Positions 14,612 through 32,556 of a stretch of DNA of 32,675 nucleotides are shown piece by piece. Position 1 is the stretch's first letter. Each line of letters opens with the position of its first letter. Below the pieces are notes generated by a model that had not been told where the DNA came from, ran no database searches, and saw only the letters and a program-made list of their open reading frames with translations. The translations under genes were made by a program, and so were the position numbers. Source of the stretch: Candidatus Lindowiibacteriota bacterium (GTDB taxonomy: Bacteria > Lindowbacteria > 2-12-FULL-62-27); the NCBI GenBank assembly GCA_023249255.1, contig JAHFCY010000006.1, forward strand, positions 1 to 32,675. Reading direction: 5' to 3'.

Positions 14612-15376
14612 ATGACAGACAGCGGCAAACTCAAAGTCAAATTATTCGCCGACGGCGCGGAACTCAAGGTCATTGCCGAGATGGCGAAAAATCCGATGAT
14701 CTGTGGATTCACGACCAACCCGACGCTCATGCGCAAGGCCGGCGTCAGCGACTACAAGGCGTTTGCGCTGGAGACGCTGAAGATCATCGGCGACAAGCCC
14801 ATCTCGTTCGAGGTCTTTTCCGACGAATTTTCCGAAATGAAGGCCCAGGCGCTGCAAATCGCCTCGTGGGGCGGGTCGAACATCTACGTCAAGATTCCGG
14901 TGAGCAATACGCGGAGAGAATTTTCCGGCCCGCTTATCCGCGATCTCACGGAGTCGGGTGTGCAGGTCAACGTCACAGCCATCATGACACCGAAACAGGT
15001 GGCGGACGTCCTCAACTACATGGCCAAAAACGTCCGCGGGTACGTCTCGGTCTTTGCCGGCCGCATCGCCGACACGGGCCGCGACCCGATCCCCCTCATG
15101 GCCGAATGCATGAAACTTCTGGCGCCTCACCCATGGGTCGAACTCATCTGGGCCAGCCCCCGTGAACTTCTGAACATCATCCAGGCCGACGCCGTCGGCT
15201 GTCACATCATCACGGCCACCAACGACGTCCTGTCGAAACTGCCGCTGGTCGGCAAAGACCTCGACGAATTTTCGCTCGACACGGTCAAGATGTTCCGCAA
15301 GGACGCTCTGGGCGCCGGCTATACGATTGACGCTTCGTCAAAGGGTTCGTCCCCCAAATCCGTCAAAACGAAGTAA
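14612..15376 (+). CDS. tal: Transaldolase, short (TalC-type) form
   Basis: 254 aa; FADGA, FTTNPTL, SFEV, YVKIP (Schiff-base lysine), NVTA, SVFAGRI. Confidence 0.92.
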   Translation: MTDSGKLKVKLFADGAELKVIAEMAKNPMICGFTTNPTLMRKAGVSDYKAFALETLKIIGDKPISFEVFSDEFSEMKAQALQIASWGGSNIYVKIPVSNTRREFSGPLIRDLTESGVQVNVTAIMTPKQVADVLNYMAKNVRGYVSVFAGRIADTGRDPIPLMAECMKLLAPHPWVELIWASPRELLNIIQADAVGCHIITATNDVLSKLPLVGKDLDEFSLDTVKMFRKDALGAGYTIDASSKGSSPKSVKTK

Positions 15377-15384
15377 TCCTTCCC

Positions 15385-16383
15385 TTGAAAAAAATTCTGG
15401 TCACAGGAGGCGCGGGATACGTGGGCTGTGTTCTCGCGCCCAAACTTCTCGATCGCGGATACGAGATTATCGTTTACGATCTCATGCTTTTTGGTGACCG
15501 TGGACTGCCGCGTCGGAACGGTCTCGAAATCGTCCGGGGCGACATTCGCAACGCCGAATTTTTCGTATCGAAACTCGATGATGTCGACTGTGTCATCCAC
15601 CTCGCCTGCATTTCAAACGACCCCAGCTTTGAGCTTCAGCCGGGATTGAGCCGCGCCATCAACTTCGACTGTTTCGAACCGATGGTCGACGCCTGTGTTG
15701 CACGTGGCGTGAAACGATTCATCTACGCCTCCACCAGTTCCGTCTACGGCGTGAGCGACGCGCCCGACGTCACTGAAACCCATTCGCTCGTTCCGCTCAC
15801 GGATTACAACAAATACAAGGGCCTATGCGAGCCGGTTCTCCTGCGCCGGCAATCGCCGGAATTTACGACAGTCGTCATCCGGCCCGCCACGGTCTGTGGC
15901 TATTCGCCGCGCATGCGCCTCGATCTCTCCGTCAACATTCTCACGAACCACGCGGTCAATCGCGGGACCATCACCGTGTTCGGCGGCAGTCAGAAACGTC
16001 CGAACATCCACATCGATGACATCACCGACCTCTACGTCGATCTTGTTGAGAGGCCGGCAAAGGAGATTGCGGGTGAAATATTCAACGCGGGGTATCAAAA
16101 CCACACGATTGCCGACATCGCGGGGATCGTCAAATCCGTCGTCGAGGCCGAAATGCCGGGCAAGGCGGCGATCCGGATAGAAACGTCGCCGTCGAACGAT
16201 CTGCGGTCGTACCACGTGTCGTCGCGCAAGATCGCAGAGAAACTCGGGTTTGTTCCGAGGCGGACGATCGAAGACGCTGTCCGGGGCATGTGCCGGGCGT
16301 TTTCTGAAGGCAGACTGCCGAACAGTTTCGACGACGACATTTATTACAACGTGAAAACAATCAAGAAACTGAACCTGTCATGA
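15385..16383 (+). CDS. NAD-dependent NDP-sugar epimerase/dehydratase
   Basis: 332 aa; TGGAGYVG, HLACISNDP, STSSVYG, YNKYK. Confidence 0.92.
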   Translation: MKKILVTGGAGYVGCVLAPKLLDRGYEIIVYDLMLFGDRGLPRRNGLEIVRGDIRNAEFFVSKLDDVDCVIHLACISNDPSFELQPGLSRAINFDCFEPMVDACVARGVKRFIYASTSSVYGVSDAPDVTETHSLVPLTDYNKYKGLCEPVLLRRQSPEFTTVVIRPATVCGYSPRMRLDLSVNILTNHAVNRGTITVFGGSQKRPNIHIDDITDLYVDLVERPAKEIAGEIFNAGYQNHTIADIAGIVKSVVEAEMPGKAAIRIETSPSNDLRSYHVSSRKIAEKLGFVPRRTIEDAVRGMCRAFSEGRLPNSFDDDIYYNVKTIKKLNLS

Positions 16384-17387
16384 GCGCAAAACCCGTCGCG
16401 GTGGTCACAGGCGCCGCCGGATTCATCGGCAGTCACATGGTGGATTTGCTGATATCAGGGGGATACCGTGTGCGTGGCCTCGACGATCTCACAGGCGGAC
16501 GGCAGGAAAATCTGGCCCATCATGCCAACAATCCAGATTTTGAGCTCGACGTCCGGGACATCCGCACGATCCCGGCCGACGACACGCTGTTTCGCGGCGC
16601 GCGGTACGTGTTTCATTTCGCCGGCCGCGGTGACATCGTTCCGTCCATCGAGAAACCGGTCGAATATATGTCAATCAACGTCATGGGAACCATATCGGTT
16701 CTGGAAGCCGCGAGAAACGCCGGCGTTTCCAAATTTGTCTATGCCGCATCCTCCTCGTGCTACGGCCGGAATCCTCCCGAACCGACACGCGAGGACGTGC
16801 CGATATCGCCCGAGTATCCATACGCGTTGAGCAAGTTTCTTGGGGAGCAGGCCGTGTTGCACTGGGGACGCGTCTATGGCATCCCCGTGTCATCCGTCCG
16901 GATTTTTAACGCGTACGGCCCGCGGGTCAAAACAACGGGCGCATACGGCGCTGTCTTCGGAGTGTTCCTTGCGCAAAAACTTGCCGGAAAGCCGTTGACC
17001 GTTGTCGGCGACGGAACGCAGAGACGGGATTTCGTGTTCGTCACGGACGTGACCCGGGCGTTTTTTCGGGCGGCGGAATCCGGATCGGCGGGCGCCATCT
17101 ACAATCTCGGAACCGCCAATCCCCAGACCGTGAACAGGCTGGTAGAACTGATCGGCGGGCCTGTGGTACATGTTCCGAAACGGCCGGGCGAACCGGACTG
17201 TACGTGGGCCGACACATCCAAAATCCGCAGGGAACTTGACTGGGAACCGTTGGTATCTTTTGAGAAAGGCGTTGCGCAGATGATCGCAAACATCGACTAC
17301 TGGAAAAACGCTCCTGTGTGGGATCCGGAATCGATCCGGCGGGCAACGCAGACGTGGTTCGACCGGCTCGGAAAGACGGGATCATGA
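16380..17387 (+). CDS. NAD-dependent NDP-sugar epimerase (GalE/WbpP-like)
   Basis: 335 aa; TGAAGFIGSH, ASSSCYG, YALSK, GDGTQRRDF; ATGA overlap. Confidence 0.92.
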   Translation: MSAKPVAVVTGAAGFIGSHMVDLLISGGYRVRGLDDLTGGRQENLAHHANNPDFELDVRDIRTIPADDTLFRGARYVFHFAGRGDIVPSIEKPVEYMSINVMGTISVLEAARNAGVSKFVYAASSSCYGRNPPEPTREDVPISPEYPYALSKFLGEQAVLHWGRVYGIPVSSVRIFNAYGPRVKTTGAYGAVFGVFLAQKLAGKPLTVVGDGTQRRDFVFVTDVTRAFFRAAESGSAGAIYNLGTANPQTVNRLVELIGGPVVHVPKRPGEPDCTWADTSKIRRELDWEPLVSFEKGVAQMIANIDYWKNAPVWDPESIRRATQTWFDRLGKTGS

Positions 17388-18937
17388 CGACTCCGGACTC
17401 ACAGAACCATTACCGCCGAAAAATCAAAACCCGCAAGGAATTGCAGGAGATCATCGGTGCGCGGCCGCGGACCCGCTCCGTCATCCTGTGCCACGGCACG
17501 TTCGACCTCGTCCATCCCGGCCACATCCGGCATCTCATGTACGCCAAAACAAAAGCGGACATTCTCGTAGCGAGCCTCACCAGCGACGCGTATATAACCA
17601 AGGCCAATTTCAGGCCGTTCGTCCCGCAGGATCTGCGCGCGATGAATCTGGCGGCGCTCGAAATTGTCGATTACGTCCTCATCGACTACAGCGCGACTCC
17701 TCTCGAAGCCATCCGGGATCTACAGCCCGACTTCTACGCCAAGGGATACGAATATTCGGAAGGCGGGGTCCATCCGAAAACCCGCGAGGAGATCGAGGCA
17801 TTGGACGCCTACGGCGGCGAGATCATCTTCACTCCGGGAGACGTCGTGTTTTCGTCGTCAGCCTTCATCGAGAGCGGACTGCCGGGCCTTGCGACCGAAA
17901 AACTCGGGACACTCATGGAATCCGAAGGCATGACATTCGATTCCCTGCGAAAAGCGCTGGCCGGATTCAAAGGCGCACGCGTCCACGTCCTCGGAGACAC
18001 CATCGTCGATTCCTACACATACTGCACGACGATCAGCAGCGGGTCCGTCAAGACACCGACGTTGAGCGTCAAATACGAGCGTCATGTCGATTTTGCCGGC
18101 GGGGCGGCAGTGGTCGCACGGCATGTCGCCGCGACCGGCGCGGCGGTACGGTTTTCCACAGTTCTCGGCAGGGATCCGCTCAAGGACTTTGTCGTGCAGG
18201 AAATCGCCAAGGCCGGGATCGAAAGCGATTTCGTCGAGGATTCCACGCGGCCCACCACGCAAAAAAATGTTTTTCTCTCGGACGGATACCGTCTTCTGAA
18301 GTTCGATAAAGTGGATAACCGGCCGATTTCCGATCGGATTTTGGACAAACTCAAGTCGAGCCTGTCCTCGAGCAAGGCCGACGCGTTCATCTTCAGCGAT
18401 TTTCGCCATGGAATTTTCAATCACGAGAGTATTTCACAACTGACCGCCGCTTTGCCCAAAGGGCCGATACGCGTGGCCGACAGCCAGGTGGCCAGCCGCT
18501 GGGGCAATATTCTCGATTTTCAGGAATTTGATCTGCTGACGCCGAACGAGCGCGAGGCGCGATTTGCGTTGGGCGATCAGGATTCTGTCGTTCGACCGCT
18601 GGCTCTCGAACTCTACAAACGCGCGCGGTGCAAGACACTGATTTTGAAACTCGGGAGCCGGGGACTCATCACCTACGTTCGTCCGAGCATCGACATCCGG
18701 TCGTTTTTCACGGTCGACAGTTTTGCCGCGAAAGTGGTGGACGCGATGGGGACCGGGGACGCGCTGTTGGCGTACGCAACATTGTCGCTGGTGTCGACCG
18801 GCTCGCCGGTCATCGCGTCGATCCTCGGCTCCGTGGCCGCCGCCGTCGCGTGCGAGCGCGAAGGCAATGTGACCGTCACTCCGGCGGACATTCTCGACAA
18901 ACTGAATTCCATCGAAAAGAAACTCAATTTTTCGTGA
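17384..18937 (+). CDS. Bifunctional nucleotidyltransferase (RfaE-II-like) plus PfkB sugar kinase (RfaE-I-like); HldE-like with reversed domain order
   Basis: 517 aa from ATG 17384 (ATGA overlap); N-terminal GTFDLVHPGH (HxGH); C-terminal GGAAVVA, TPNEREA, VDAMGTGD. Confidence 0.88.
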   Translation: MTTPDSQNHYRRKIKTRKELQEIIGARPRTRSVILCHGTFDLVHPGHIRHLMYAKTKADILVASLTSDAYITKANFRPFVPQDLRAMNLAALEIVDYVLIDYSATPLEAIRDLQPDFYAKGYEYSEGGVHPKTREEIEALDAYGGEIIFTPGDVVFSSSAFIESGLPGLATEKLGTLMESEGMTFDSLRKALAGFKGARVHVLGDTIVDSYTYCTTISSGSVKTPTLSVKYERHVDFAGGAAVVARHVAATGAAVRFSTVLGRDPLKDFVVQEIAKAGIESDFVEDSTRPTTQKNVFLSDGYRLLKFDKVDNRPISDRILDKLKSSLSSSKADAFIFSDFRHGIFNHESISQLTAALPKGPIRVADSQVASRWGNILDFQEFDLLTPNEREARFALGDQDSVVRPLALELYKRARCKTLILKLGSRGLITYVRPSIDIRSFFTVDSFAAKVVDAMGTGDALLAYATLSLVSTGSPVIASILGSVAAAVACEREGNVTVTPADILDKLNSIEKKLNFS

Positions 18938-19854
18938 GGACAGTCGTCGTCGGCCTCGGGCTGCAGGGCCATAAACGTGTGGCGGCGGGGGGGAAGGACA
19001 TTGTTGCCGCCGTTGATCCCGTCGCGGACGGAGCAAAATACAAACGCATCGAGGACGTGCCGCTCGCCGACTTCGATGCGGCCATGGTGAGCACGCCTGA
19101 TGACGCCAAACTCCCACTGATTCGATATCTTCTTTCGAACGGCAAACACGTCCTCGTTGAAAAGCCCCTGCTCGCAAAGGATCCGGCGGTCTTTGCGGAA
19201 TTGGACGCCCTTGCGCGCTCGAGACGTGTCACGTGCTACACGGCTTACAACCACCGATTCGAGCCGAACATCGCGCAGATCAAACCATCTCTCGATCAGA
19301 ATTCGATCGGCCGTGTTTATCTGGCAAAATTCCATTACGGCAACGGAACCGCGCGCGATTTCAAAAATTCTCCTTGGCGGGATCGCGGCACGGGCGTCGT
19401 GTCGGACCTCGCCTCGCATCTTCTCGACCTCACGAATTTCTTTTTCGGCAATCAGGACGGGCGCTCGTACAGCGCCTCCTGCCTCAACCGATTTGAAAAC
19501 AACGCCTACGATCACGCCATCCTCGTCAGCCGCGGCCTGCCTGTCATTGAACTTGAGATGTCACTCATCTGCTGGAAAAATACGTTCACCATTGATTTTT
19601 TTGGCGAACTCGGAAGCATCCATGCGTTTGGCCTCTGTAAATGGGGTCCGACCACCCTGACGATTCGAAAGCGTGTGTTTCCAAGCGGGAAACCGGTGGA
19701 AGACGTCGAGCGATTCGAGGGACCCGATCCCACATGGGTCAAAGAATTTGAACATTTCAAGGCGCTCTGTCAAACCGGTGTGACGTCTCTCGACAATGAC
19801 AGACGGATCGATTCCATTCTGCACCGGATTCCGGAGCGGGAGGAGTCGGCATGA
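18934..19854 (+). CDS. Gfo/Idh/MocA family oxidoreductase
   Basis: 306 aa from GTG 18934 (GTGA overlap); GLGLQG, HVLVEKP, YNHRF, DLASHLLD. Confidence 0.92.
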   Translation: MRTVVVGLGLQGHKRVAAGGKDIVAAVDPVADGAKYKRIEDVPLADFDAAMVSTPDDAKLPLIRYLLSNGKHVLVEKPLLAKDPAVFAELDALARSRRVTCYTAYNHRFEPNIAQIKPSLDQNSIGRVYLAKFHYGNGTARDFKNSPWRDRGTGVVSDLASHLLDLTNFFFGNQDGRSYSASCLNRFENNAYDHAILVSRGLPVIELEMSLICWKNTFTIDFFGELGSIHAFGLCKWGPTTLTIRKRVFPSGKPVEDVERFEGPDPTWVKEFEHFKALCQTGVTSLDNDRRIDSILHRIPEREESA

Positions 19855-21146
19855 TCGGATTTTCGGGATTGTCACATCTGGGCATCATATCGAGCATTGC
19901 GCTTGCTTCCAAAGGACACGATACGGTCATTGCGTTTTCCCCGGACGACGCGCTCTGCCGGGACCTTTCGCATGGTCGATTCCCGATTTACGAAAAGGGC
20001 CTGGCGGAACTGTTTCGGGACCACGTCGGAAAAATTCAGTTCACGTCCGACCCGGCGGCGCTCAAATCCTGCGCAGTGGTTCATCTCTCCCTCGACATCG
20101 CGACCGACGACCAGAACCGCGGTAATCTCGACCGCTTTCAAAGCCTGTTCGAATCGACCGTCGACTCGCTCACTGCGGACACCGCGCTCGTGGTGATGAG
20201 CCAGCTTCAGCCGGGTACGATGCGGCGTCTTGCGAGAAGGATTCAAAAAATGCGGGCGGAACGAAATATCAATCTCTACTATCAGGTCGAAACACTGATT
20301 TTCGGAAACGCGGTGGAACGCGCACTTAATCCCGAGCGATTCATCGTCGGATGCGAAAATCCAGCGGATGATTTGCCGGCGCCGTACAAAGCCATTCTCG
20401 CCGTCTTTGGCTGTCCGGTATTCCGAATGCATTATGAAAGCGCGGAACTGGCGAAAATCTCGATCAACATCTGTCTGGCCGCGTCACTTTCCGTAGCCAA
20501 CACGATGGCGGAACTTTGTGAATCGGTCGACGCCGACTGGGCGGAAATCATTCCGGCGTTGAAGACGGACCGCCGCATCGGCCCGTACTCGTATCTTGTG
20601 CCGGGACTCGGCATCGGAGGCGGCAACATCGAACGCGATCTGGCGGCGGTCAGCGACATGGCGCAATCTTACGGCACGGACGGCGGAACCGTCGATGCGT
20701 TTTTGTCCAACAGCCGGCATCGAAAAAGCTGGCCGATCGAAATTCTTGAAAAATATCTCCCGCCGAAAACGGACAACCCGAAAGTCGGCATCTGGGGCAT
20801 TGCCTATAAAGCCGACACGGCCTCGACCAAAAATTCTCCGGCCATCGAACTTATCCGGGCGCTCGCGCCACGACAGATAAAGGCGTATGACCCGCAGGCG
20901 AAACTTGATCCGGCAACCGCGCCGACCTGCGTTCAGGTGTCGAGCGCGCGGCAGGCTGTCGAGGGCGTTGACGCGCTGGCGATCATGACGCCGTGGAAGG
21001 AATTCTCGACAGTCGATCCCGCCGAAATAAAGGCGGCCATGTCCGGCCGGATCGTGGTCGATCCATTCGGCGTGCTGGATCGGCCCAAATGCCGGGCCGC
21101 CGACCTTCGGCAATTCGTGCTCGGCGCGCCCATGGAGACGACATGA
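19851..21146 (+). CDS. UDP-glucose/GDP-mannose dehydrogenase-family protein lacking the catalytic Cys
   Basis: 431 aa; PIYEKGL, SAELAKISIN, DRRIG, GIGGGNIERD (canonical GGxC), GIAYKADT...NSP, YDP, TPWKEF. Confidence 0.85.
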   Translation: MIGFSGLSHLGIISSIALASKGHDTVIAFSPDDALCRDLSHGRFPIYEKGLAELFRDHVGKIQFTSDPAALKSCAVVHLSLDIATDDQNRGNLDRFQSLFESTVDSLTADTALVVMSQLQPGTMRRLARRIQKMRAERNINLYYQVETLIFGNAVERALNPERFIVGCENPADDLPAPYKAILAVFGCPVFRMHYESAELAKISINICLAASLSVANTMAELCESVDADWAEIIPALKTDRRIGPYSYLVPGLGIGGGNIERDLAAVSDMAQSYGTDGGTVDAFLSNSRHRKSWPIEILEKYLPPKTDNPKVGIWGIAYKADTASTKNSPAIELIRALAPRQIKAYDPQAKLDPATAPTCVQVSSARQAVEGVDALAIMTPWKEFSTVDPAEIKAAMSGRIVVDPFGVLDRPKCRAADLRQFVLGAPMETT

Positions 21147-25402: not shown

Positions 25403-26155
25403 ATGACTGAAGACATCCATCTCAGCGTCGTAATTCCGGCGTACAACGAAGAGCGGAAAATCGCGGACGACATCCATCTCGCAGAACGTTATTTCAAGAC
25501 ACAGTCATACGGCTGCGAAATCATTGTGGCGGATGATGGAAGCCTGGACGGCACAAGCGATGTAGTTGAATCCATCGCCCGGAATAATCCGCGCGTTCGT
25601 CTTGTTCGTCTTCAGCAAAATCGCGGAAAAGGCGCGGCGGTTCGGGCGGGCATGGAGGCCGCCCGCGGGCGGTTTGCGCTTTTTTCGGACGCCGGAACCT
25701 GCGTGCCGTATGCAAACGTCGAGCGGGGTCTGGATCTGCTCAAGAATGGCTCCGATATGGCCTACGGCACACGGTCTACATCGCAGGCGCACATTCAGCG
25801 GAAACAGCCGATCTACCGGCGGATCGGTTCACGCGTCTTTCATTACATCGTGCATTTCTGGATGGGCCTGACTGACATTTCTGACACCCAGTGCGGATTC
25901 AAGCTTTTCACACAGCGCGCCTATCGTGACATTTTCAGAAATATCATGACGGATGGGTTCATGTTCGACTCCGAGACGTTTCTCTATGCGCTCTGGCGCG
26001 GCTACACCATCCGTGAATTTCCCGTCGAATGGTCGAATGACCCCGACACGCGGTTCAAGCCGTTTGGCGGGAGCATCCGGAATTTCAGGGAACTCGTGGC
26101 GATCAGGCGAAGGATGCGCCAGTTGCGATCCGGGAAAATTCAGATTCAAAGATGA
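25403..26155 (+). CDS. GT2, dolichyl/polyprenyl-phosphate glycosyltransferase family (ALG5/DPM-like)
   Basis: 250 aa; VIPAYNEE, DDGSLD, NRGKGAAVRAG, DTQCGFKLF, FDSE, PVEW. Confidence 0.92.
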   Translation: MTEDIHLSVVIPAYNEERKIADDIHLAERYFKTQSYGCEIIVADDGSLDGTSDVVESIARNNPRVRLVRLQQNRGKGAAVRAGMEAARGRFALFSDAGTCVPYANVERGLDLLKNGSDMAYGTRSTSQAHIQRKQPIYRRIGSRVFHYIVHFWMGLTDISDTQCGFKLFTQRAYRDIFRNIMTDGFMFDSETFLYALWRGYTIREFPVEWSNDPDTRFKPFGGSIRNFRELVAIRRRMRQLRSGKIQIQR

Positions 26156-26164
26156 AACCCAAGG

Positions 26165-26286
26165 GCCACACACAGACAAACACCAACAGTCACGGGTATC
26201 CACCAGTGATATCTTCTGACCATTTTTTGCGCGCAATGCACGCATCCTGTGTTCGTCTGTTCATGTCTGTGATCGTCTGTGTGTGG
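26165..26286. repeat. Intergenic imperfect palindrome built of ~10-bp units (copy 2)
   Basis: ccacacacagac (26166-26177) is the exact reverse complement of gtctgtgtgtgg (26275-26286); right arm has nnnnGTCTGT three times at 10-nt spacing; 17/19 identity to the 5' end of copy 1. Confidence 0.75.
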
Positions 26287-26294
26287 TATTTTTT

Positions 26295-27923
26295 ATGAAA
26301 TTCGATGCGCGGACAATCAGCGTTTCGTTATTGATCGCCCTCGCGGTCGGGACATACGATCTTCACTATCCAAATTACGCGCCCGACCAGCACATTTTCG
26401 GGACGATGCTTCTCAAGGACAAACATCCCGACCTGTTCACCCGCGATTTTTTTTTCGGCGACCCGGCCAATTACGGCCACTACGTGCCCTGCTATCGCTC
26501 CCTCGCCGGATGGGTCGTCGGTGACTCGGAAGGCGAGGACCTTCTATTCCGGTACAATCTGCTTTTATTTCCCACCCTGTTTTTTTTCGTCTGGGGATTC
26601 CACCGACTGTTTTTCCGCCTGACGGGCAACGCAGCGGCAAGTTGGGCTGTCACAGCCGCGGCCGTCGTGAGTCGCCAGTCTCTTTCGGTGAACCAGTTCG
26701 GCATCGGACTTCACGATTCCATGGTGGCCTACAAAGTGTTTCTTGCGGCCGTGCCATGGATTCTCGATCTTACGCTTCGGCGCGCGTTTCATCGGACCGA
26801 CCTGCTGGTCTCGTTTTTTCTTCTGGGACTCGTCTCCAATTTTCATCCGATTCTCGGGCTCGGATTCGCCGGCATTCTGGCCCTTTCGCTGGCGGGGGTT
26901 ATCCGGCCGAAAGTAATCGTCGCCTCCACTCTTGTCTCAAGTCTTTCTCTTTTTGTCGCCGGCTTTGCGCCCTATATCATCCTCTATCTGCGACACGCGT
27001 CGCCCGTGACGGATAAACCGTTTACGGCTTCCGAATTCTGGACGGCTTTCTCGACGAACTGGGGATATCTGCCGGTGTCACTCCTCGGATTGCGGGCATT
27101 TCTCATGGATTCCATTTTCCTCATCGTGTTTTCCCTCATCGGATGGCGGGCAGTTCGGAGGAATCACGGCTCATGGGACGCGACTCCGGCGCCGGCGAGA
27201 TTTTTTGTCTGGTTTGCGGCGGCGGCCGTGTTTCTGCCTGTTCTGGTCAGCGCGGCTCTTCAGGCGCAAAGCCTGCTCTTGGATCGGCCGCCCATCATCG
27301 GCCTCGAACCCATGCGCTGGACCGCATTCCTGTATGTTCCCCTGTACGTTCTGTCCGCGCATTTTTTGTCCGGGGCGCGCGCGGGTGATATCCCGTGGGG
27401 ACGCATGTCGCGCCGGACGCTTTTTATCGTCGCTGTCTTCCCGCTCTTTATTCAAAAAGAGTTCCCCGGAAGGCTGATTTTCCGTGAGGCGTTGATCCGA
27501 ACCGGCATCTATTCCGAAAAACGGACCGCCGCCATTGAACGGGACAACGAGCGCCGTAATGACCTGCTTGCAGTGGCGCAATGGGCGCGTTCCACCACGC
27601 CCGTTGACGCCCTGTTCTTTCATCCTCATTACGATTTCCGGTTTTACTCCCAGCGCGCCGTGGTCATCGGCTGGAAAGACGGATCGATGTTCACCCGCGC
27701 CGGATCGAAAAAAACCCGCGAGTGGCTCGATCGCGCAGGCCGCGTACGGGAAGCGATCGACTCGAAAGATGCCCAACGTGTATTCAACACGGCGGGCGAA
27801 ATGGGCTGCGACTTCGTTATTTTGCGCGAGGGCGAAGGGCCGCAGGACGGAATCGGATCGCCGGTGTTTCAAAATCAGACGTACCGGGTCTATCGGGTGG
27901 CAGACGATGCCGGAAAAAGTTAG
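26295..27923 (+). CDS. Polytopic membrane protein, putative GT-C-type transferase
   Basis: 542 aa; multiple hydrophobic segments, DQH and FTRDFF loop after TM1, NFHPILG, soluble C-terminal domain (WARSTTPVDALF...FRFYSQR); follows a polyprenyl-P GT2. Confidence 0.6.
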   Translation: MKFDARTISVSLLIALAVGTYDLHYPNYAPDQHIFGTMLLKDKHPDLFTRDFFFGDPANYGHYVPCYRSLAGWVVGDSEGEDLLFRYNLLLFPTLFFFVWGFHRLFFRLTGNAAASWAVTAAAVVSRQSLSVNQFGIGLHDSMVAYKVFLAAVPWILDLTLRRAFHRTDLLVSFFLLGLVSNFHPILGLGFAGILALSLAGVIRPKVIVASTLVSSLSLFVAGFAPYIILYLRHASPVTDKPFTASEFWTAFSTNWGYLPVSLLGLRAFLMDSIFLIVFSLIGWRAVRRNHGSWDATPAPARFFVWFAAAAVFLPVLVSAALQAQSLLLDRPPIIGLEPMRWTAFLYVPLYVLSAHFLSGARAGDIPWGRMSRRTLFIVAVFPLFIQKEFPGRLIFREALIRTGIYSEKRTAAIERDNERRNDLLAVAQWARSTTPVDALFFHPHYDFRFYSQRAVVIGWKDGSMFTRAGSKKTREWLDRAGRVREAIDSKDAQRVFNTAGEMGCDFVILREGEGPQDGIGSPVFQNQTYRVYRVADDAGKS

Positions 27924-28704
27924 AATTCCTTCTCGGCACTGGTCAGCGGATCATGAGGACATGCTCGAGGAATCGACGCGGGACCACGCGATTGACGTGG
28001 CGTCCCGCCGGATGGCGCTGGACGCGCTGGCCGGGAATCTTTGCGGTGGGCGCCCGGCGTATCTGGACGCCGGATGTTCGACCGGATGGCTCGTGGAGGA
28101 TGTGCGGTGGAGACATCCAGCCGCGTGGATCGTCGGCGCCGATCCATTCCTGTCGGGACTTCGAAAACTCCGCGGGAGGCTTGGCGATGTTCGAACGGTG
28201 CAATTTGACCTCTGCCGGGCGCCGTTTGCCGGCGAATCATTTGACGCAATATCGTGTCTGAACGTGCTGGAGCACATTGAGGAGGATGTTCAGGCCCTGC
28301 GGCAGATTCGCCGGATGCTGAAACCGGATGGCGGGGCATTCATCATGGTCCCGGCTGGGCCGGGACTGTTCGATTATTACGACGAAGTTCACCAGCATGT
28401 TCGGCGATACGGTTGCGGAGAATTTCAGAGCAAACTGGCGGCGGCCGGATTGACAGTCCGGCGTCTTTCGTATCTTGGCGTGTTGTTGTATCCGGCGTTT
28501 TATGCCGCCAAAAAAATGGGCCAATGGAAAATGCGTGGAAAAACGATGGATGAAAAACGTCAGCAGGTTTTGAAAAACATCGGCCGGACGTCCGGTTCGT
28601 GGATGGCGGGCGCAGCACTCGCGCTGGAGCGGAAACTTTCGGCTGTCCTTCCCCAGCGGTTCGGCATCCGGCTTTGCGCCAGCGTCAGGCGGGCGGCGGC
28701 ATGA
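27907..28704 (+). CDS. Class I SAM-dependent methyltransferase
   Basis: 265 aa from ATG 27907; LDAGCSTG, FDAISCLNVLEHI, LKPDG, HVRRY. Confidence 0.88.
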   Translation: MPEKVRIPSRHWSADHEDMLEESTRDHAIDVASRRMALDALAGNLCGGRPAYLDAGCSTGWLVEDVRWRHPAAWIVGADPFLSGLRKLRGRLGDVRTVQFDLCRAPFAGESFDAISCLNVLEHIEEDVQALRQIRRMLKPDGGAFIMVPAGPGLFDYYDEVHQHVRRYGCGEFQSKLAAAGLTVRRLSYLGVLLYPAFYAAKKMGQWKMRGKTMDEKRQQVLKNIGRTSGSWMAGAALALERKLSAVLPQRFGIRLCASVRRAAA

Positions 28705-29630
28705 ACATTCTGATCACCGGTGTCGCAGGATTCATCGGGTCGAATCTGGCCCGCGAACTTCTGACGCAGAGACACTCCGTGGCCGGTATCGACAATCTTT
28801 CGGCTGGAACGCGGGAGAATGTGCCGGCCGGCGTTCGACTCCACGTTCACGATATCCGGGATGAGTCGATCGCAGAATTATTTCGTGGCGTTGACGCCGT
28901 CTACCATCTCGCCGCCAAAAACTGCCTGACCGACTGTATGAACAATCCGGTTGAAACTGCCGACATCAACGTCCGCGGCACGGCCAACGTGCTGGAGTGC
29001 GCCCGACGCGCCGGCGTGAAAAAATTCGTCTACGCCGACTCATCAGCCGAGTACGAAGGTCTGCAGGAATTTCCATCGACGGTCGACCACATCGCGCCGG
29101 AAGGCATTTACGCCTCAAGCAAACGCGGCGGCGCGCTGTTGTGTGAAAGTTATCGGAAATTTTTCGGAATGAACGTGACGATCCTCCGGTATTTCAACGT
29201 TTACGGTCCCGCGCAGGATTTTCGCCGCGTGATCCCTCCCGTCATGAGCGCGTTCATCCTCAAAATGCTGAACGGTGAGCCGCCCGTCATTTACGGCACG
29301 GGCGACAAACGGCGCGACTATATCTACGTGGACGACGTGAATCGCTTTCAGATCCTCACGCTCACGGACACCAGGACAAACGGCCGGACTTACAACGTCG
29401 GGTCGGGCGTCAGTCACTCCGTCAAGGATGTATTTCGGATGATTGAAGACGAAATGAAAACTGGATTAAAACCGATTCACAAACCGGAACTGCCAAACGA
29501 CGTCGACAACACGCTCGCCGACATCACGCGCGAACGCGCACTGGGATGGGCCCCGCAGGTCAACATTCAGGAAGGCATCCGACGCACGATCGAATATTTG
29601 AAATCCAAATTGCACGCAACACGAACATGA
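28701..29630 (+). CDS. NAD-dependent NDP-sugar epimerase/dehydratase
   Basis: 309 aa from ATG 28701 (ATGA overlap); TGVAGFIGS, YASSK, RYFNVYGP, RDYIYVDD. Confidence 0.92.
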   Translation: MNILITGVAGFIGSNLARELLTQRHSVAGIDNLSAGTRENVPAGVRLHVHDIRDESIAELFRGVDAVYHLAAKNCLTDCMNNPVETADINVRGTANVLECARRAGVKKFVYADSSAEYEGLQEFPSTVDHIAPEGIYASSKRGGALLCESYRKFFGMNVTILRYFNVYGPAQDFRRVIPPVMSAFILKMLNGEPPVIYGTGDKRRDYIYVDDVNRFQILTLTDTRTNGRTYNVGSGVSHSVKDVFRMIEDEMKTGLKPIHKPELPNDVDNTLADITRERALGWAPQVNIQEGIRRTIEYLKSKLHATRT

Positions 29631-30634
29631 TCGTCACACGCACGCCCTTTCGAATTCCGCTCGGCGGAGGCGGGACCGATCTGCCGTCGTTCTACAAACA
29701 AGAAGGCGGCTTCGTCTTCAGCGCCGGGATAGACAAGTACATGTTCATCTGCGTGAACCAGCCGATCGTCGATGATCTCGTCCGACTCAAATATTCCAAG
29801 ACCGAGATGGTCGAATCGGTCGATGATGTCCAGCACGAGCTGGCGCGCGAGGCGCTCAAACGGCTCGGGTTCAAAAATTCCATCGAGATTGTTTCGATGG
29901 CCGACGTGCCGGCCGGAACGGGGCTCGGCTCATCAAGCTGTTATCTGGTCGGCCTTCTCAATGCCCTCCACACCCTGCGGCGCGAGTTTGTTTCGTTGAA
30001 GGACCTGGCCGAGGAAGCCTGTGACATCGAATTAAATACCCTCAAAAAACCGATTGGCAAACAGGATCAGTACATGGCCGCATTCGGCGGTCTCACGACA
30101 CTTGATATCTCCCCGGATGGAAAAGTCACGGTCGGTAACGTCCAGCTGAGCCGCGGCGTGATCGATGACCTTGAAAAAAACATGCTCATCTTTTTCACCG
30201 GAACGATGCGAAACGCACTGGACATCCTCGGCGATCAGAGTCGCGCAACTGAGCAGAAAAACAAAACCGTCGTCGGCAGCCTCGCAAAAATCAAGGATAT
30301 CGGACTGCGGATCAGGGAAGCGGTCGAGACCGGCAATTTGACGCGCTTTGGTCGGCTCATGGACGAACACTGGCAGTACAAAAAACAATTGTCCTCAAAA
30401 GTGAGCGACGCGAAGTTTGACCGTCTTTACGAGATCGCCAAATCCAACGGGGCACTCGGCGGAAAAATAACGGGAGCGGGGGGTGGCGGTTTTTTTGTGT
30501 TTTATGTCGAAGGCAACGCAAGCCGTCTGAGGCACGCTCTGGCCCAGGAAGGACTGCGCGAGATGCGGTACCGGTTCGATTTCGAAGGCACGAAGGTCAT
30601 ATCGAATTTTTTGAATTACCGCGTCGCCGGGTGA
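29627..30634 (+). CDS. GHMP kinase, HddA/LmbP-like (heptose-7-phosphate 1-kinase)
   Basis: 335 aa from ATG 29627; TPFRIPLGGGGTD, PAGTGLGSSS, IGKQDQY, GAGGGGF. Confidence 0.92.
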   Translation: MIVTRTPFRIPLGGGGTDLPSFYKQEGGFVFSAGIDKYMFICVNQPIVDDLVRLKYSKTEMVESVDDVQHELAREALKRLGFKNSIEIVSMADVPAGTGLGSSSCYLVGLLNALHTLRREFVSLKDLAEEACDIELNTLKKPIGKQDQYMAAFGGLTTLDISPDGKVTVGNVQLSRGVIDDLEKNMLIFFTGTMRNALDILGDQSRATEQKNKTVVGSLAKIKDIGLRIREAVETGNLTRFGRLMDEHWQYKKQLSSKVSDAKFDRLYEIAKSNGALGGKITGAGGGGFFVFYVEGNASRLRHALAQEGLREMRYRFDFEGTKVISNFLNYRVAG

Positions 30635-30637
30635 TCC

Positions 30638-31354
30638 ATGAAAGCCATGGTCCTTGCCGCGGGCCGCGGCACGCGTCTGAAACCGTTCACGGACAATATG
30701 CCCAAGCCCATGATTCCTGTTGCAGGCCGACCGATCCTCGAACACATCGTGATCCAGCTTCGTGACGTCGGATTCACCGATCTCGTCATCAACCTCCATT
30801 ACCACCCGGAGGCGATCACGGAACACTTCGGCAACGGCGACAAATTCGGCGTCCGAATACACTACTCGCGCGAAACGGCACTTCTCGGCACGGCCGGCGC
30901 GGTCAAAAAAATTCAGGATCAATTCATTGGACCCTTTCTCGTCTATTACGGTGACAATTACGTCGAAATCGATCTCGATCAATTCGTTCGTGCGCACCAC
31001 GACGCGGCACCGGTCGCCACAATCGCGGTTTTTCCATGCGACAATCCGAGCATGTCCGGGATCGCGCGTGTGGACGACGGACAAAATATCGTCGAGTTTG
31101 TCGAAAAACCTGTGCCCGGATCCAATGCGGGAAATCTGGCCAACGCCGGCGTCTACATCCTTAATCCGGGTGTCCTCAAGGCCATCCCCGCAGACCGGCC
31201 CTCCGACTTCGGCCATGATATCTTTCCGGAACTTCTGCGGCAGGGACAAAACCTGAAAGCTTTCATGCTTTCGGGACGTGTGATCGGTGTCGACACACCC
31301 GAACTGCACACACGGCTGGAACGATACCTCTCCGGCCGGAAACGGCACGCCTGA
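30638..31354 (+). CDS. Sugar-1-phosphate nucleotidyltransferase (HddC / mannose-1-P guanylyltransferase-like)
   Basis: 238 aa; LAAGRGTRL, PKPM, LGTAGA, YGD, FVEKP, NAGVY. Confidence 0.92.
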   Translation: MKAMVLAAGRGTRLKPFTDNMPKPMIPVAGRPILEHIVIQLRDVGFTDLVINLHYHPEAITEHFGNGDKFGVRIHYSRETALLGTAGAVKKIQDQFIGPFLVYYGDNYVEIDLDQFVRAHHDAAPVATIAVFPCDNPSMSGIARVDDGQNIVEFVEKPVPGSNAGNLANAGVYILNPGVLKAIPADRPSDFGHDIFPELLRQGQNLKAFMLSGRVIGVDTPELHTRLERYLSGRKRHA

Positions 31355-31383: not shown

Positions 31384-31392
31384 AGACGTCCT

Positions 31393-31995
31393 ATGAGCAA
31401 TCGAAATTACATTGACGCGTACATGACCGGCTGTGTCGAGATCGTGCAACGAATTGACCGTGCCGACATCGACCGTGTAATCGATCATCTCTACACGGCG
31501 TGGGAGAAGGGCCGGCGGATCTTCATTTTTGGAAACGGTGGTTCGGCCGGCACGGCGTCACACTTCGCGGCTGACCTCAACAAATGCACGGTCATTGAGG
31601 GCAAAAAGCGGATCAAGGTCATGAGCCTGGTCGACAGCATGCCGTGGGTCAGCGCGCTCACCAACGACGACGGCTGGGACAACGTCTACGTCGAACAGAT
31701 GAAAAACTTCTTCGAGCCCGGCGACGTCGCGCTGGCGTTGAGTGTCCACGGCGGATCGGGAAGCGATAAAGCCGGTCTCTGGTCGCAAAATCTTCTGAAA
31801 GGTCTTCAGTACGCCAGGGATCACCAGGGCGTCGCGCTCGGGTTCAGCGGATTTGACGGCGGCGCAATGAAACAGATGGCCCACGCCTGCGTGGTCGTGC
31901 CCTACAATACGACGCCGCACGTCGAGTCGTTTCACGTCGTCCTTCATCATCTCGTGACGTTCTGCCTCGCCGACCGGATTTGCCGGTCGGATTGA
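31393..31995 (+). CDS. gmhA: SIS-domain phosphoheptose isomerase-like protein (divergent GmhA)
   Basis: 200 aa; GNGGSAGTASHFAADL, SALTND, GFDGG, VESFHVVLHH. Confidence 0.88.
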   Translation: MSNRNYIDAYMTGCVEIVQRIDRADIDRVIDHLYTAWEKGRRIFIFGNGGSAGTASHFAADLNKCTVIEGKKRIKVMSLVDSMPWVSALTNDDGWDNVYVEQMKNFFEPGDVALALSVHGGSGSDKAGLWSQNLLKGLQYARDHQGVALGFSGFDGGAMKQMAHACVVVPYNTTPHVESFHVVLHHLVTFCLADRICRSD

Positions 31996-32016
31996 TTCTT
32001 CGGAGGCGGACTTCCC

Positions 32017-32556
32017 TTGACCGGACGCCGCGCCGTGTTTCTCGATCGCGACGGCGTGCTCAACCGCCAGATTCTCAAAGATGGGAAACCCGAAATGCTC
32101 GCAACCCTCGACGATTTTGAATGGCTGCCTGGCGTGATCGAGTCACTTGAGAAATTGCGCGCGGCGGAACTCGCCCTCATCGTTGTCACCAACCAACCGG
32201 ACGTTTCACGGGGCAGGCTTTCCGCTGAAACGCTGGAGAAGATTCACGACAAGATGCGCGCGACCTTTCCATTCGACGGCATCTACACGTGTCCGCACGA
32301 GGATAAAGACGGATGTGATTGCAGGAAACCGAATCCGGGTTTGATCGTTCGCGCCGCGGCCGACCACGGCATCGATCCGGCGGCATCGTTTCTCGTCGGA
32401 GACCGGGATCGGGACATCGGGGCGGGATTCGCGGCCGGATGCGTGACGGTCTTGATCCAGCATCCCTATTCCGGCGAGGTCACCGCCGATTACACCGTCC
32501 GGGATTTGCCGTCCGCCACGGACATCATCCTGCGGCTTTGCCGGAATCATTTGTGA
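32017..32556 (+). CDS. gmhB: HAD-IIIA heptose-bisphosphate phosphatase
   Basis: 179 aa; FLDRDGVLN, VTNQ, CPH...CDCRKP zinc motif, VGDRDRD. Confidence 0.93.
   Translation: MTGRRAVFLDRDGVLNRQILKDGKPEMLATLDDFEWLPGVIESLEKLRAAELALIVVTNQPDVSRGRLSAETLEKIHDKMRATFPFDGIYTCPHEDKDGCDCRKPNPGLIVRAAADHGIDPAASFLVGDRDRDIGAGFAAGCVTVLIQHPYSGEVTADYTVRDLPSATDIILRLCRNHL

What the first reader, a model, noticed from the sequence alone, without database searches (positions are those of the whole stretch)
14612..32556. Full lincosamide-type (GDP-octose/amino-octose) enzyme set embedded in a surface-glycan operon
Seen: one co-directional run holds a transaldolase, SIS isomerase, GHMP kinase, HAD phosphatase, nucleotidyltransferase, three NDP-sugar epimerases, a Gfo/Idh/MocA gene coupled to a UGDH-like gene, and DegT aminotransferases. 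Established: lincomycin's C8 sugar is made by these same families (LmbR transaldolase, LmbN isomerase, LmbP kinase, LmbK phosphatase, LmbO guanylyltransferase, LmbM epimerase, LmbL plus LmbZ/CcbZ dehydration, LmbS/CcbS transaminase), whereas standard GDP-heptose pathways need only GmhA/HddA/GmhB/HddC. Inference: the locus makes a deoxy-amino octose (or heptose) nucleotide. The neighbours are polyprenyl-P GTs and membrane transferases rather than thiol/NRPS genes, so the sugar likely goes into a cell-envelope glycan. Matching is at family level only.
Basis: partly seen in the sequence, partly recalled or inferred. Interest (0 to 1): 0.85.

Follow-up and report, generated by a model that had tools for sequence, protein, structure and literature searches.

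The report
Transaldolase-primed higher-sugar envelope operon
An uncultured bacterium carries an 18-gene operon that probably builds unusual seven- or eight-carbon amino sugars for its cell surface with the enzyme families that make the sugar of the antibiotic lincomycin; relatives of this gene set occur in many bacterial groups and are unstudied.

Summary
Window 14612-32556 (+) is one tightly coupled 18-gene operon, with nine 4-nt start/stop overlaps. It also contains a reversed HldE-like nucleotidyltransferase/kinase, a PDH-E1 alpha/beta pair, a methyltransferase, a GT2 and a DUF6798 membrane protein, and a divergent classical SDR sits at 13606-14445.

The lincosamide-like reading is partly supported.
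- The transaldolase is an extra paralog in 6 of 6 genomes checked.
- It lies within 3 kb of a GmhA-like isomerase in 24 of 33 related loci from many phyla.
- It occurs fused to the HAD phosphatase or to the isomerase.
- The UGDH-like enzyme lacks the catalytic cysteine (Asn instead), so it cannot be an acid-forming dehydrogenase. This excludes a WbpA/B/E-type route.

Comparative genomics splits the run into two modules.
- Module A: Tal-SDR-SDR-HldE-like-Gfo-UGDH*, conserved in order in four other phylum-level groups.
- Module B: GT2-DUF6798-MT-SDR-GHMP-NTase-SIS-HAD.

Whether the sugar has eight carbons or seven is unproven. I could not obtain Lmb/Ccb sequences, so orthology was not tested. 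I found no paper describing such cassettes. Earlier notes of this scan report the same cassette and the same cysteine-less pair on other genomes. Verdict: new variant of a known kind, interest 0.6.

The parts
13606..14445 (-). classical SDR (FabG-like ketoreductase), divergent from the operon
   Evidence: PF00106, 181 bits. Conserved beside Tal in G001 and G002 at 75-78%. 36-46% homologs sit with Gfo and UGDH-like in L037, L039, L053, L062 and L087.
14612..15376 (+). dedicated transaldolase (cassette Tal)
   Evidence: TIGR02134, 323 bits > 282. Lys, Glu and Phe align with those of solved short transaldolases. A second Tal-family gene lies elsewhere in the genome.
15385..16383 (+). extended SDR 1, candidate sugar-nucleotide C4 dehydrogenase/epimerase
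   Evidence: PF01370. Best PDB match 6vo6, 128 bits. 53-71% orthologs follow Tal in 14 loci.
16380..17387 (+). extended SDR 2, epimerase/dehydratase type
   Evidence: PF01370 199 bits, PF16363 189 bits. Best PDB matches are UDP-hexose 4-epimerases.
17384..18937 (+). bifunctional nucleotidyltransferase (N-terminal) plus PfkB sugar kinase (C-terminal), HldE-like with reversed domain order
   Evidence: PF01467 at residues 58-146 and PF00294 at 222-521 of the long ORF. HldE model 158.7 bits, cutoff 521. 60-80% orthologs in L030-33, L044 and L047.
18934..19854 (+). Gfo/Idh/MocA oxidoreductase
   Evidence: PF22725, PF01408 and PF02894. WbpB only 23 bits. Alignment A1 of 7 orthologs.
19851..21146 (+). 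UGDH-family protein without the catalytic cysteine (UGDH*)
   Evidence: Three UDPG_MGDP_dh domains. GIGGGNIERD here against GYGGSCFPKD in the genome's own canonical paralog.
21143..22249 (+). DegT-family aminotransferase 1
   Evidence: PF01041, 373 bits. PLP lysine present.
22255..23394 (+). DegT-family aminotransferase 2
   Evidence: PF01041, 337 bits. PLP lysine present.
23391..24344 (+). ThDP-dependent E1 alpha subunit (pyruvate dehydrogenase type)
   Evidence: PF00676, 250 bits. TIGR03182 302 bits, below the cutoff of 394. PDH E1 alpha 179 bits in PDB.
24341..25363 (+). E1 beta subunit
   Evidence: PF02779 and PF02780. NF006667 273 bits, below the cutoff of 321.
25403..26155 (+). GT2, polyprenyl-phosphate sugar synthase type
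   Evidence: PF00535. Weak matches to PgfS, dolichyl-P hexose transferase, PpgS and ArnC. 60% ortholog in G002.
26283..27923 (+). multi-TM DUF6798 protein, candidate extracytoplasmic glycosyltransferase
   Evidence: PF20604. About 7 hydrophobic segments. 50% ortholog next to the GT2 in G002.
27907..28704 (+). class I SAM methyltransferase
   Evidence: PF08241 and PF13649.
28701..29630 (+). extended SDR 3
   Evidence: PF01370, 202 bits. Best PDB matches are UDP-glucose 4-epimerases.
29627..30634 (+). GHMP anomeric sugar kinase (HddA/LmbP type)
   Evidence: PF00288 and PF08544. HddA model 160.5 bits, cutoff 600. 44-51% to Tal-linked GHMP kinases in other phyla.
30638..31354 (+). sugar-1-phosphate nucleotidyltransferase
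   Evidence: PF00483, 146 bits. HddC model 86 bits, cutoff 300.
31393..31995 (+). SIS ketose-phosphate isomerase (GmhA/LmbN type)
   Evidence: PF13580. GmhA model 76 bits, cutoff 209. 82-83% orthologs in G001 and G002.
32017..32556 (+). HAD-IIIA sugar bisphosphate phosphatase (GmhB/LmbK type)
   Evidence: TIGR01656 133 > 84 and TIGR01662 87 > 45. 38-51% to HADs next to Tal in other phyla.

Best explanation
The locus is an envelope-glycan operon that makes nucleotide-activated higher-carbon sugars, starting from its own transaldolase.

Proposed steps, all inferred unless marked:
1. The transaldolase joins a three-carbon unit from fructose-6-P or sedoheptulose-7-P to ribose-5-P, giving octulose-8-P. 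This is by analogy with LmbR and is the key unproven step.
2. The SIS isomerase converts it to the aldose phosphate.
3. An anomeric kinase phosphorylates C1. The operon has two: the PfkB domain of the HldE-like protein and the GHMP kinase.
4. The HAD-IIIA phosphatase removes the distal phosphate.
5. A nucleotidyltransferase makes the NDP-sugar. Again there are two: the cytidylyltransferase-like domain of the HldE-like protein and the separate NTase.
6. Tailoring follows. SDR1 and SDR2 oxidise or epimerise ring carbons. Gfo plus the cysteine-less UGDH-like enzyme, helped by the classical SDR, oxidise or deoxygenate the side chain rather than making a uronic acid. The two DegT enzymes add amino groups. 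E1 alpha/beta transfers a two-carbon unit from pyruvate to a keto intermediate. The methyltransferase methylates.
7. The GT2 loads a product onto polyprenyl phosphate and the DUF6798 membrane protein transfers it outside the membrane.

Shown: the gene families, the operon structure, the loss of the cysteine, the extra-paralog status of Tal and its conserved linkage. Inferred: every substrate and product.
For: - Families and tight coupling.
- Tal is catalytically intact: the Lys, Glu and Phe of transaldolases align.
- Tal is an extra copy. The own genome has a second, classical Tal, and 5 of 5 other carrier genomes checked also have a second, better-scoring Tal-family gene.
- Of 37 loci fetched with Tal as query, 33 hold a Tal of at least 45% identity. 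SIS lies within 3 kb in 24 of 33 and HAD in 18 of 33. With at least 1.5 kb on both sides, SIS is present in 10 of 12.
- In a sample of 401 genomes, 9 have the Tal at E<=1e-50: G000, two genomes of its own family and six of other families. Five of those six other-family genomes show cassette partners beside it; the sixth lies at a contig end.
- Fusions: of 10 long representatives scanned, 4 are HAD-Tal and 1 is Tal-SIS. 6 of 120 hits and 1 of 120 carry HAD plus Tal domains.
- The same genome has an HldE-like gene plus SIS on another contig with no Tal nearby, and 7 GT9 heptosyltransferase-like hits. Its ordinary heptose supply therefore does without a dedicated Tal.
- UGDH*: all 12 cassette-linked sequences examined lack Cys (9 Asn, 3 Thr; one pair is the same locus fetched twice), while the one non-cassette paralog keeps it.
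- ThDP enzymes recur: E1 alpha/beta in all three same-family loci and a split transketolase after UGDH* in L044 and probably L047.
- Precedents read as passages: LmbR uses ribose-5-P plus fructose-6-P or sedoheptulose-7-P (PMC7014725). LmbM, LmbL, CcbZ and CcbS convert GDP-octose to GDP-lincosamide (PMC12945683). AviB1/AviB2 and Pau11/Pau12 are proposed to add a C-4 acetyl branch from pyruvate (PMC4753412).
Against: - No Lmb/Ccb protein could be compared, so the similarity is at family level only.
- Nothing in the sequences tells octulose-8-P from sedoheptulose-7-P.
- Tal passes the TIGR02134 model. I recall, not from a call, that this model also covers stand-alone staphylococcal transaldolases taken to be housekeeping enzymes.
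- The window's SIS is only 29-39% identical to the SIS genes beside Tal elsewhere, no closer than to paralogs in its own genome (28-32%).
- In G001 (94% complete) the Tal core lacks a close HAD and a close GHMP kinase.
- Two loci with full flanks (L030, L049) have no SIS within 3 kb.
- The roles of E1 alpha/beta, both DegT enzymes and all SDRs are guesses.
- The genome is an 88.7% complete MAG, so no glycan chemistry exists for it.
Confidence: 0.55

Rival explanations
1. The operon makes only modified heptoses. The transaldolase merely raises the supply of sedoheptulose-7-P (fructose-6-P plus erythrose-4-P). The HldE-like and GHMP/NTase branches then give an NDP-beta-heptose and a GDP-alpha-heptose that are tailored much as in Campylobacter jejuni capsules.
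For: - SIS, HAD, GHMP, NTase and the HldE-like protein all hit heptose-pathway models as their best named families.
- SDR1's best solved relative is 6vo6. I recall this to be the C. jejuni GDP-heptose C4-dehydrogenase Cj1427. That activity is described in PMC10680097 (passages), but the PDB code was not confirmed there.
- The genome has 7 GT9 heptosyltransferase-like hits.
Against: - All heptose equivalog cutoffs are missed by wide margins: GmhA 76/209, HddA 160/600, HddC 86/300, HldE 159/521.
- From recall, characterised heptose clusters carry no transaldolase. A full-text search for transaldolase together with gmhA, hddA and gmhB found no such cluster described.
- Sedoheptulose-7-P is a normal pool metabolite.
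- The same genome has a Tal-free HldE-like plus SIS pair.
- Tal is fused to the phosphatase or the isomerase in some organisms, which suggests it belongs to the pathway itself.
Confidence: 0.3
2. The higher-carbon chain is built late rather than early. The cysteine-less UGDH-like enzyme stops at the aldehyde, or makes a side-chain ketone. The ThDP enzyme (E1 alpha/beta here, a split transketolase elsewhere) then adds two carbons, giving a branched or extended C8-C10 sugar. The transaldolase plays a supporting role.
For: - Loss of the Cys needed for the second oxidation.
- Recurrent ThDP enzymes in the same operons.
- Precedent of E1-like pairs installing C2 branches (PMC4753412, passages).
Against: - L031, L032 and L033 have the Tal-to-UGDH* core but no ThDP enzyme within the stretch fetched.
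- The E1 pairs of G001 and G002 are only 41-45% identical to the window's, about as far as the genome's own second E1 pair at 37-40%.
- This reading does not explain the conserved Tal-SIS-HAD triad.
Confidence: 0.1
3. Gfo, the UGDH-like enzyme and DegT form a WbpB/WbpA/WbpE-type route to a UDP-2,3-diamino uronic acid, unrelated to the heptose-like genes.
For: The same three Pfam families lie next to each other. The WbpA/B/E family assignment is recalled.
Against: - The catalytic Cys of acid-forming dehydrogenases is Asn, and the neighbouring Lys is Arg.
- Gfo matches WbpB at only 23 bits.
- UGDH* matches UDP-ManNAc-type dehydrogenases poorly (Cap5O 52 bits).
- No acetyltransferase lies in the operon.
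- The pair travels with Tal and the HldE-like gene in other phyla.
Confidence: 0.03
4. The cluster makes a lincosamide-like secondary metabolite rather than an envelope glycan.
For: The family set parallels lmbRSOPZNML (PMC7014725, PMC4351081, passages). A fatty acyl-AMP ligase-like gene lies upstream at 1539-3242.
Against: - The window has no NRPS condensation or carrier domains, no mycothiol or ergothioneine genes and no resistance methyltransferase.
- The operon itself contains a polyprenyl-phosphate-type GT2 and a multi-TM transferase candidate, and further GT2 and YfhO-like genes lie upstream.
Confidence: 0.02

Closest known systems
Lincosamide sugar sub-pathway of Streptomyces lincolnensis and S. 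caelestis (LmbR/N/P/K/O, then LmbM, LmbL, LmbZ/CcbZ, LmbS/CcbS)
   Same: - A transaldolase is built into a sugar-activation operon with an isomerase, anomeric kinase, phosphatase and nucleotidyltransferase.
- Then come an SDR epimerase, a 'dehydrogenase' plus 'oxidoreductase' pair and an aminotransferase.
- The operon is compact with 4-nt overlaps (PMC7014725, PMC4351081, PMC12945683, passages).
   Different: - Orthology was not tested, because no Lmb/Ccb sequences could be reached.
- Here the Tal/Gfo/UGDH* core is linked to an HldE-like PfkB kinase-nucleotidyltransferase.
- A second, GHMP-type activation set sits in a separable module.
- E1 alpha/beta, a methyltransferase and a classical SDR are added.
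- The output genes are a polyprenyl-phosphate GT2 and a membrane transferase candidate, not thiol conjugation and amide-forming enzymes.
- That LmbL is UGDH-family and LmbZ is Gfo/Idh/MocA is recalled. The papers read call them only 'C8 dehydrogenase' and 'C8 oxidoreductase'.
ADP-L-glycero-beta-D-manno-heptose pathway (GmhA, HldE, GmhB, HldD)
   Same: SIS isomerase, PfkB kinase plus cytidylyltransferase-like domain in one protein, HAD-IIIA phosphatase and SDR epimerases.
   Different: - The domain order is reversed relative to the HldE model.
- All equivalog cutoffs are missed.
- There is a dedicated transaldolase.
- The genome has a separate HldE-like plus SIS pair elsewhere.
- The nucleotide used is unknown.
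[quoted passage not shown]
   Same: GHMP kinase, NTase, SIS and HAD lie in a block with an SDR. SDR1 is most like 6vo6. A 4-keto intermediate as the hub for tailoring is plausible (PMC10680097, passages).
   Different: HddA and HddC scores are far below cutoff. A transaldolase, a Gfo/UGDH* pair, DegT enzymes and a ThDP enzyme are present. No cupin epimerases were found in the operon.
E1-like two-carbon branching enzymes of deoxysugar antibiotics (AviB1/AviB2, Pau11/Pau12)
   Same: An alpha/beta pair of pyruvate-dehydrogenase E1 type sits inside a sugar operon without E2 or E3 partners. A ketoreductase candidate is nearby (PMC4753412, passages).
   Different: No sequence comparison was possible. 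The acceptor here would be a heptose or octose nucleotide in a glycan pathway. The association with module A is confined to this family; a split transketolase takes that place in L044 and probably L047.
UDP-glucose 6-dehydrogenase family
   Same: Three-domain architecture. TIGR03026 subfamily cutoff passed (214 > 190). Best solved relatives are UDP-glucose dehydrogenases (126 bits).
   Different: The nucleophilic Cys is replaced by Asn and the following Lys by Arg, in every cassette-linked member examined. Four-electron oxidation to an acid is therefore not expected.

Membership tests
Lincosamide-type NDP-octose/amino-octose pathway | Transaldolase encoded with the sugar-phosphate isomerase, kinase, phosphatase and nucleotidyltransferase | tested here: met
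   All five families lie in one operon. The Tal-SIS-HAD linkage is conserved across phyla.
Lincosamide-type NDP-octose/amino-octose pathway | Transaldolase forms octulose-8-phosphate from ribose-5-P | not testable with these tools
   This needs an enzyme assay. The catalytic residues are intact but say nothing about the acceptor.
Lincosamide-type NDP-octose/amino-octose pathway | GHMP kinase and guanylyltransferase act on the Tal-derived sugar | tested here: inconclusive
   Both are present. In relatives, however, the Tal core is linked to the HldE-like gene, and GHMP/NTase form a separate block. GHMP-type Tal cassettes do exist in other phyla.
Lincosamide-type NDP-octose/amino-octose pathway | Paired 'dehydrogenase' and 'oxidoreductase' (LmbL with LmbZ/CcbZ) plus SDR epimerase and DegT aminotransferase | tested here: met
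   Gfo and UGDH* overlap by 4 nt and are followed by two DegT genes. This is at family level only.
Lincosamide-type NDP-octose/amino-octose pathway | Orthology of the proteins to Lmb/Ccb proteins | not testable with these tools
   No Lmb/Ccb sugar enzyme was found in the PDB for any of the 7 proteins searched. No Streptomyces hit appeared in the named listings or in the cluster look-up.
Acid-forming UDP-glucose/GDP-mannose 6-dehydrogenases | Catalytic cysteine in the GGxCxxKD motif | tested here: not met
   GIGGGNIERD here against GYGGSCFPKD in the genome's canonical paralog. All 12 cassette-linked sequences lack Cys. The role of this Cys is recalled.
Transaldolase, TIGR02134 type | Score above the equivalog cutoff; Schiff-base Lys, Glu and Phe present | tested here: met
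   323 bits > 282. The alignment to 3s0c, 1vpx and 3r8r keeps E, K and F. The residue roles are recalled.
HldE (bifunctional heptose kinase/adenylyltransferase) | Equivalog score and kinase-then-transferase domain order | tested here: not met
   158.7 bits against 521. Here the transferase domain is N-terminal.
GmhA, HddA, HddC, GmhB equivalogs | Scores above the NCBIfam cutoffs | tested here: not met
   GmhA 76/209, HddA 160.5/600, HddC 86/300, GmhB NF006506 130/178. Only the broad HAD-IIIA models pass.
Pyruvate dehydrogenase complex E1 | Equivalog score and E2/E3 partners | tested here: not met
   Alpha 302/394, beta 273/321. No lipoyl or E3 family was found among the window's genes scanned.
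WbpA/WbpB/WbpE UDP-diamino-uronic acid pathway | Acid-forming 6-dehydrogenase, WbpB-like 3-oxidase, N-acetyltransferase | tested here: not met
   The Cys is absent. WbpB scores 23 bits. No acetyltransferase lies in the operon.

The most novel reading that the evidence does not exclude
Bacteria of many phyla make nucleotide-activated octoses, not just heptoses, for their envelopes. One branch uses HldE-type (ADP-heptose-like) activation that has never been described for a C8 sugar. The cysteine-less UGDH/Gfo pair is a general side-chain deoxygenation device. The lincomycin sugar pathway would then be a specialised offshoot of this widespread primary glycan pathway. In this organism the product would be further aminated and C2-branched, giving a C10-class amino sugar.
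Probability: 0.4. Interest if true: 0.8.

Novelty: new variant of a known kind. Interest (0 to 1): 0.6.

Why it matters
As far as I recall, free-standing octoses are known in bacteria only from the lincosamide antibiotics. I did not verify this beyond the four literature searches.

If this conserved cassette really makes NDP-octoses, a whole class of envelope sugars in uncultured and environmental bacteria has been overlooked. It would also supply enzymes for making rare C8 sugars: a ribose-5-P-accepting transaldolase, an HldE-type octose kinase/transferase, and a two-enzyme side-chain dehydratase. The evolutionary source of the lincosamine pathway would become testable.

If it makes only heptoses, it is still an undescribed way of wiring central carbon metabolism to glycan synthesis.

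Tried and rejected
- **Reaching Lmb/Ccb sequences.** PDB searches with Tal, Gfo, UGDH*, E1 alpha and three SDRs found none. The top 120 named hits for Tal held no Streptomyces. I picked 10 high-GC-looking representatives from the exhaustive Tal search; all were unnamed, nine singletons and one cluster of two. A profile of six of them again gave no Streptomyces among 120 hits.
- **Key papers.** The key lincosamide papers (PNAS 2020, JACS 2012) are not held.
- **Gfo-UGDH fusions.** A search of longer proteins found none, which the tool itself rates as weak evidence.
- **Complex prediction.** UGDH* (alignment A2) with Gfo (A1) returned no answer, score 0.00. This counts neither for nor against binding.
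- **Promoter and terminator scan of 13400-32675.** 14 promoter-like sites against 7.0 +/- 3.0 in shuffles, and 31 terminator-like against 22.1 +/- 5.4. No site clearly separates the two modules.
- **WbpA/B/E reading.** Considered and rejected.
- **Housekeeping-Tal reading.** Rejected.
- **Supplements.** Supplementary files were not opened. They might list Lmb/Ccb accessions, but no tool here fetches by accession from those sources.

Full report
**What is there.** The window is a whole contig of a 3.35-Mb, 88.7%-complete MAG. The best named relative of its transaldolase is a Candidatus Lindowbacteria protein at 82% identity.

From 14612 to 32556 on the + strand lie 18 genes. Pfam and NCBIfam give them as:
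- transaldolase (Tal);
- two extended SDRs (SDR1, SDR2);
- a protein with an N-terminal cytidylyltransferase-like domain and a C-terminal PfkB kinase domain, i.e. HldE-like with the order reversed;
- Gfo/Idh/MocA;
- a UGDH-family protein;
- two DegT aminotransferases;
- E1 alpha and E1 beta of the pyruvate-dehydrogenase type;
- a small GT2;
- a DUF6798 membrane protein;
- a methyltransferase;
- a third SDR;
- a GHMP kinase;
- a nucleotidyltransferase;
- a SIS isomerase;
- a HAD-IIIA phosphatase.

After the starts were corrected, nine junctions overlap by 4 nt and no gap exceeds 127 nt. It omits the HldE-like gene, the E1 pair and the methyltransferase, and it starts one gene too late. A classical SDR at 13606-14445 (-) is conserved beside the Tal in relatives.

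**Two modules.** Of three other genomes in the same family, two carry the Tal.
- In both, the conserved block is classical SDR / Tal-HldE-like-Gfo-UGDH-E1 alpha-E1 beta. SDR1, SDR2 and the DegT genes are not inside it.
- In G002 a second block lies about 13 kb away as a unit. It is GT2-DUF6798-MT-SDR3-GHMP-NTase-SIS-HAD at 50-82% identity.
- G001 (94% complete) has only a 38% GHMP paralog and no close HAD.
- Outside the family, the order SIS-HAD-Tal-SDR1-SDR2-HldE-like-Gfo-UGDH recurs at 44-67% identity in MAGs labelled Burkholderiales, Pirellulaceae and Verrucomicrobium and on two metagenome contigs. Eight further short contigs break off after SDR1 or SDR2.

I call 14612-25363 module A and 25403-32556 module B.

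**The transaldolase is dedicated.**
- It keeps the Glu, Lys and Phe that align with those of solved short transaldolases (the residue roles are recalled).
- The own genome has a second, classical Tal split over two contig ends.
- All 5 other carrier genomes checked also have a second, better-scoring Tal-family gene.
- Of 37 loci fetched with the Tal as query, 33 hold a Tal of at least 45% identity. The four dropped are L041 and L064 (fragments), L065 (27% identity) and L066 (31 residues).
- SIS lies within 3 kb in 24 of the 33 and HAD in 18 of the 33. Among the 12 loci with at least 1.5 kb on both sides, SIS is present in 10. The exceptions are L030 and L049.
- In a sample of 401 genomes, 9 have the Tal at E<=1e-50: G000, two genomes of its own family and six of other families. 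Five of those six other-family genomes show SIS, HAD, GHMP, SDR1 or Gfo/UGDH partners next to it, and the sixth sits at a contig end.
- Of 10 long representatives from the exhaustive search, 4 are HAD-Tal fusions and 1 is a Tal-SIS fusion. The other five are homing-endonuclease, radical-SAM-like or unassigned N-terminal extensions.
- The cassette has two flavours. The HldE-type has the full core (HldE-like, Gfo, UGDH-like) in 6 loci. The GHMP/NTase-type occurs in 8 loci plus G188. The window has both around a single Tal, SIS and HAD.

**The UGDH-like enzyme.** Where acid-forming dehydrogenases have GGxCxxKD, this protein reads GIGGGNIERD. The genome's own canonical paralog on another contig reads GYGGSCFPKD.
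- All 12 cassette-linked sequences examined lack the cysteine. Nine have Asn (HldE-type loci; L030 and G002 are the same locus) and three have Thr (GHMP-type loci).
- Gfo matches WbpB at only 23 bits, and the operon has no acetyltransferase. I reject a WbpA/B/E-type diamino-uronic acid route.
- A two-electron oxidation, or a redox-assisted dehydration with Gfo, is the natural alternative. The papers I could read say only that LmbL ('C8 dehydrogenase') and LmbZ/CcbZ ('C8 oxidoreductase') act with LmbM and CcbS to convert GDP-octose to GDP-lincosamide (PMC4351081, PMC12945683, passages). The 6,8-dehydration role is my recollection of a paper that is not held.

**Other tailoring genes.**
- SDR1's best solved relative is 6vo6 at 128 bits. 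I recall this as Cj1427, the C. jejuni GDP-heptose C4-dehydrogenase, whose chemistry is described in PMC10680097 (passages). The PDB code itself was not confirmed.
- Both DegT proteins keep the PLP lysine.
- The E1 pair scores below the PDH equivalog cutoffs, and no E2 or E3 lies in the window.
- E1-like pairs in sugar clusters are proposed to add a C-4 acetyl branch from pyruvate, followed by a ketoreductase (PMC4753412, passages).
- In L044 a split transketolase follows UGDH-like, a methyltransferase and an SDR. L047 has the same gene order by tblastn. So a ThDP enzyme recurs with module A, though not in L031-L033.

**Destination.**
- The GT2 is of the polyprenyl-phosphate sugar synthase kind (weak matches to PgfS, dolichyl-P hexose transferase, PpgS and ArnC).
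- The DUF6798 protein has about seven hydrophobic segments. The two stay together in G002.
- Upstream lie an ArnB-like DegT, a fatty acyl-AMP ligase-like gene, a NodU-like carbamoyltransferase, a YfhO-like membrane protein and an ArnC/PgfS-like GT2.
- No NRPS condensation or carrier domains were found. An envelope glycan is much the likeliest product.

**Seven or eight carbons.** This is not settled. In favour of C8:
- The only characterised Tal-containing sugar-activation operon makes octulose-8-P from ribose-5-P (PMC7014725, passages).
- From recall, characterised heptose clusters have no Tal. Four full-text searches found no description of a Tal-linked heptose or octose cassette in a glycan locus.
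- The same genome runs an HldE-like plus SIS pair and seven GT9-like genes without a dedicated Tal.
- The heptose equivalog cutoffs are all missed.

Against it, no sequence feature separates the two substrates, and no Lmb/Ccb protein could be compared. I put C8 at roughly 55-60%.

**Relation to earlier notes of this scan.** Earlier notes, which are unchecked AI notes, describe a transaldolase-led cassette on at least eight other genomes and a cysteine-less UGDH/Gfo pair on at least seven. My linkage analysis and my motif reading came before I read those notes. The alignment that confirmed the motif across orthologs came after. The results agree with the notes.

This window adds several things: both activation flavours around one Tal; the DegT pair directly after UGDH-like; a conserved ThDP partner; the six-of-six extra-paralog count; and the internal contrast with a Tal-free heptose module.

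**Verdict.** The lincosamide-like reading is partly supported. It is a new variant of a known kind, and the decisive evidence must come from enzyme assays and from trees that include the Lmb/Ccb proteins.

Noticed in passing
window 385-11056: A second envelope-modification set lies upstream: an ArnB-like DegT (385-1542), a fatty acyl-AMP ligase-like gene (1539-3242), a GDSL-like protein, an inositol-monophosphatase/CysQ-like gene, a NodU-like carbamoyltransferase (5974-7746, -), an 808-aa YfhO-like membrane protein (7680-10106, -) and an ArnC/PgfS-like GT2 (10103-11056, -). It looks like a lipid-carrier-linked amino-sugar transfer system with acylation and carbamoylation.
   Followed up: partly
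window 12408-13556 (-): An AAA ATPase with DUF4143 sits between the GT2 genes and the sugar operon. G002 has only a 37% homolog, at a different position, so this may be an insertion.
   Followed up: no
G000:C309:36-770 and G000:C156:2315-2731: The genome's classical transaldolase is split across two contig ends. The C156 piece lies in a 750-aa open frame, which suggests a fusion with another enzyme.
   Followed up: no
proteins P0164, P0225, P0256: Some cassette-type transaldolase representatives carry GIY-YIG/NUMOD3 homing-endonuclease or radical-SAM-like N-terminal parts. These may be phage-borne copies or merged gene calls.
   Followed up: no
L045:1-2400 and L045:10001-10708: One metagenome contig carries two cassette-type Tal genes. 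One sits next to DegT and Gfo homologs, the other in the SIS-HAD-Tal-SDR1-SDR2 order.
   Followed up: no
L032:16585-19404: In the Pirellulaceae locus the UGDH-like gene is followed by a 485-aa protein with a C-terminal NUDIX domain and by a protein with the transmembrane domain of lysyl-phosphatidylglycerol synthase. This may hint at sugar-nucleotide hydrolysis or a lipid-linked acceptor.
   Followed up: no
G000:C260:11786-13866: A paralog of the HldE-like protein has the same reversed domain order (29% identity over 510 residues) and lies next to another SIS gene. The reversed order may be the norm for the heptose pathway in this lineage.
   Followed up: partly
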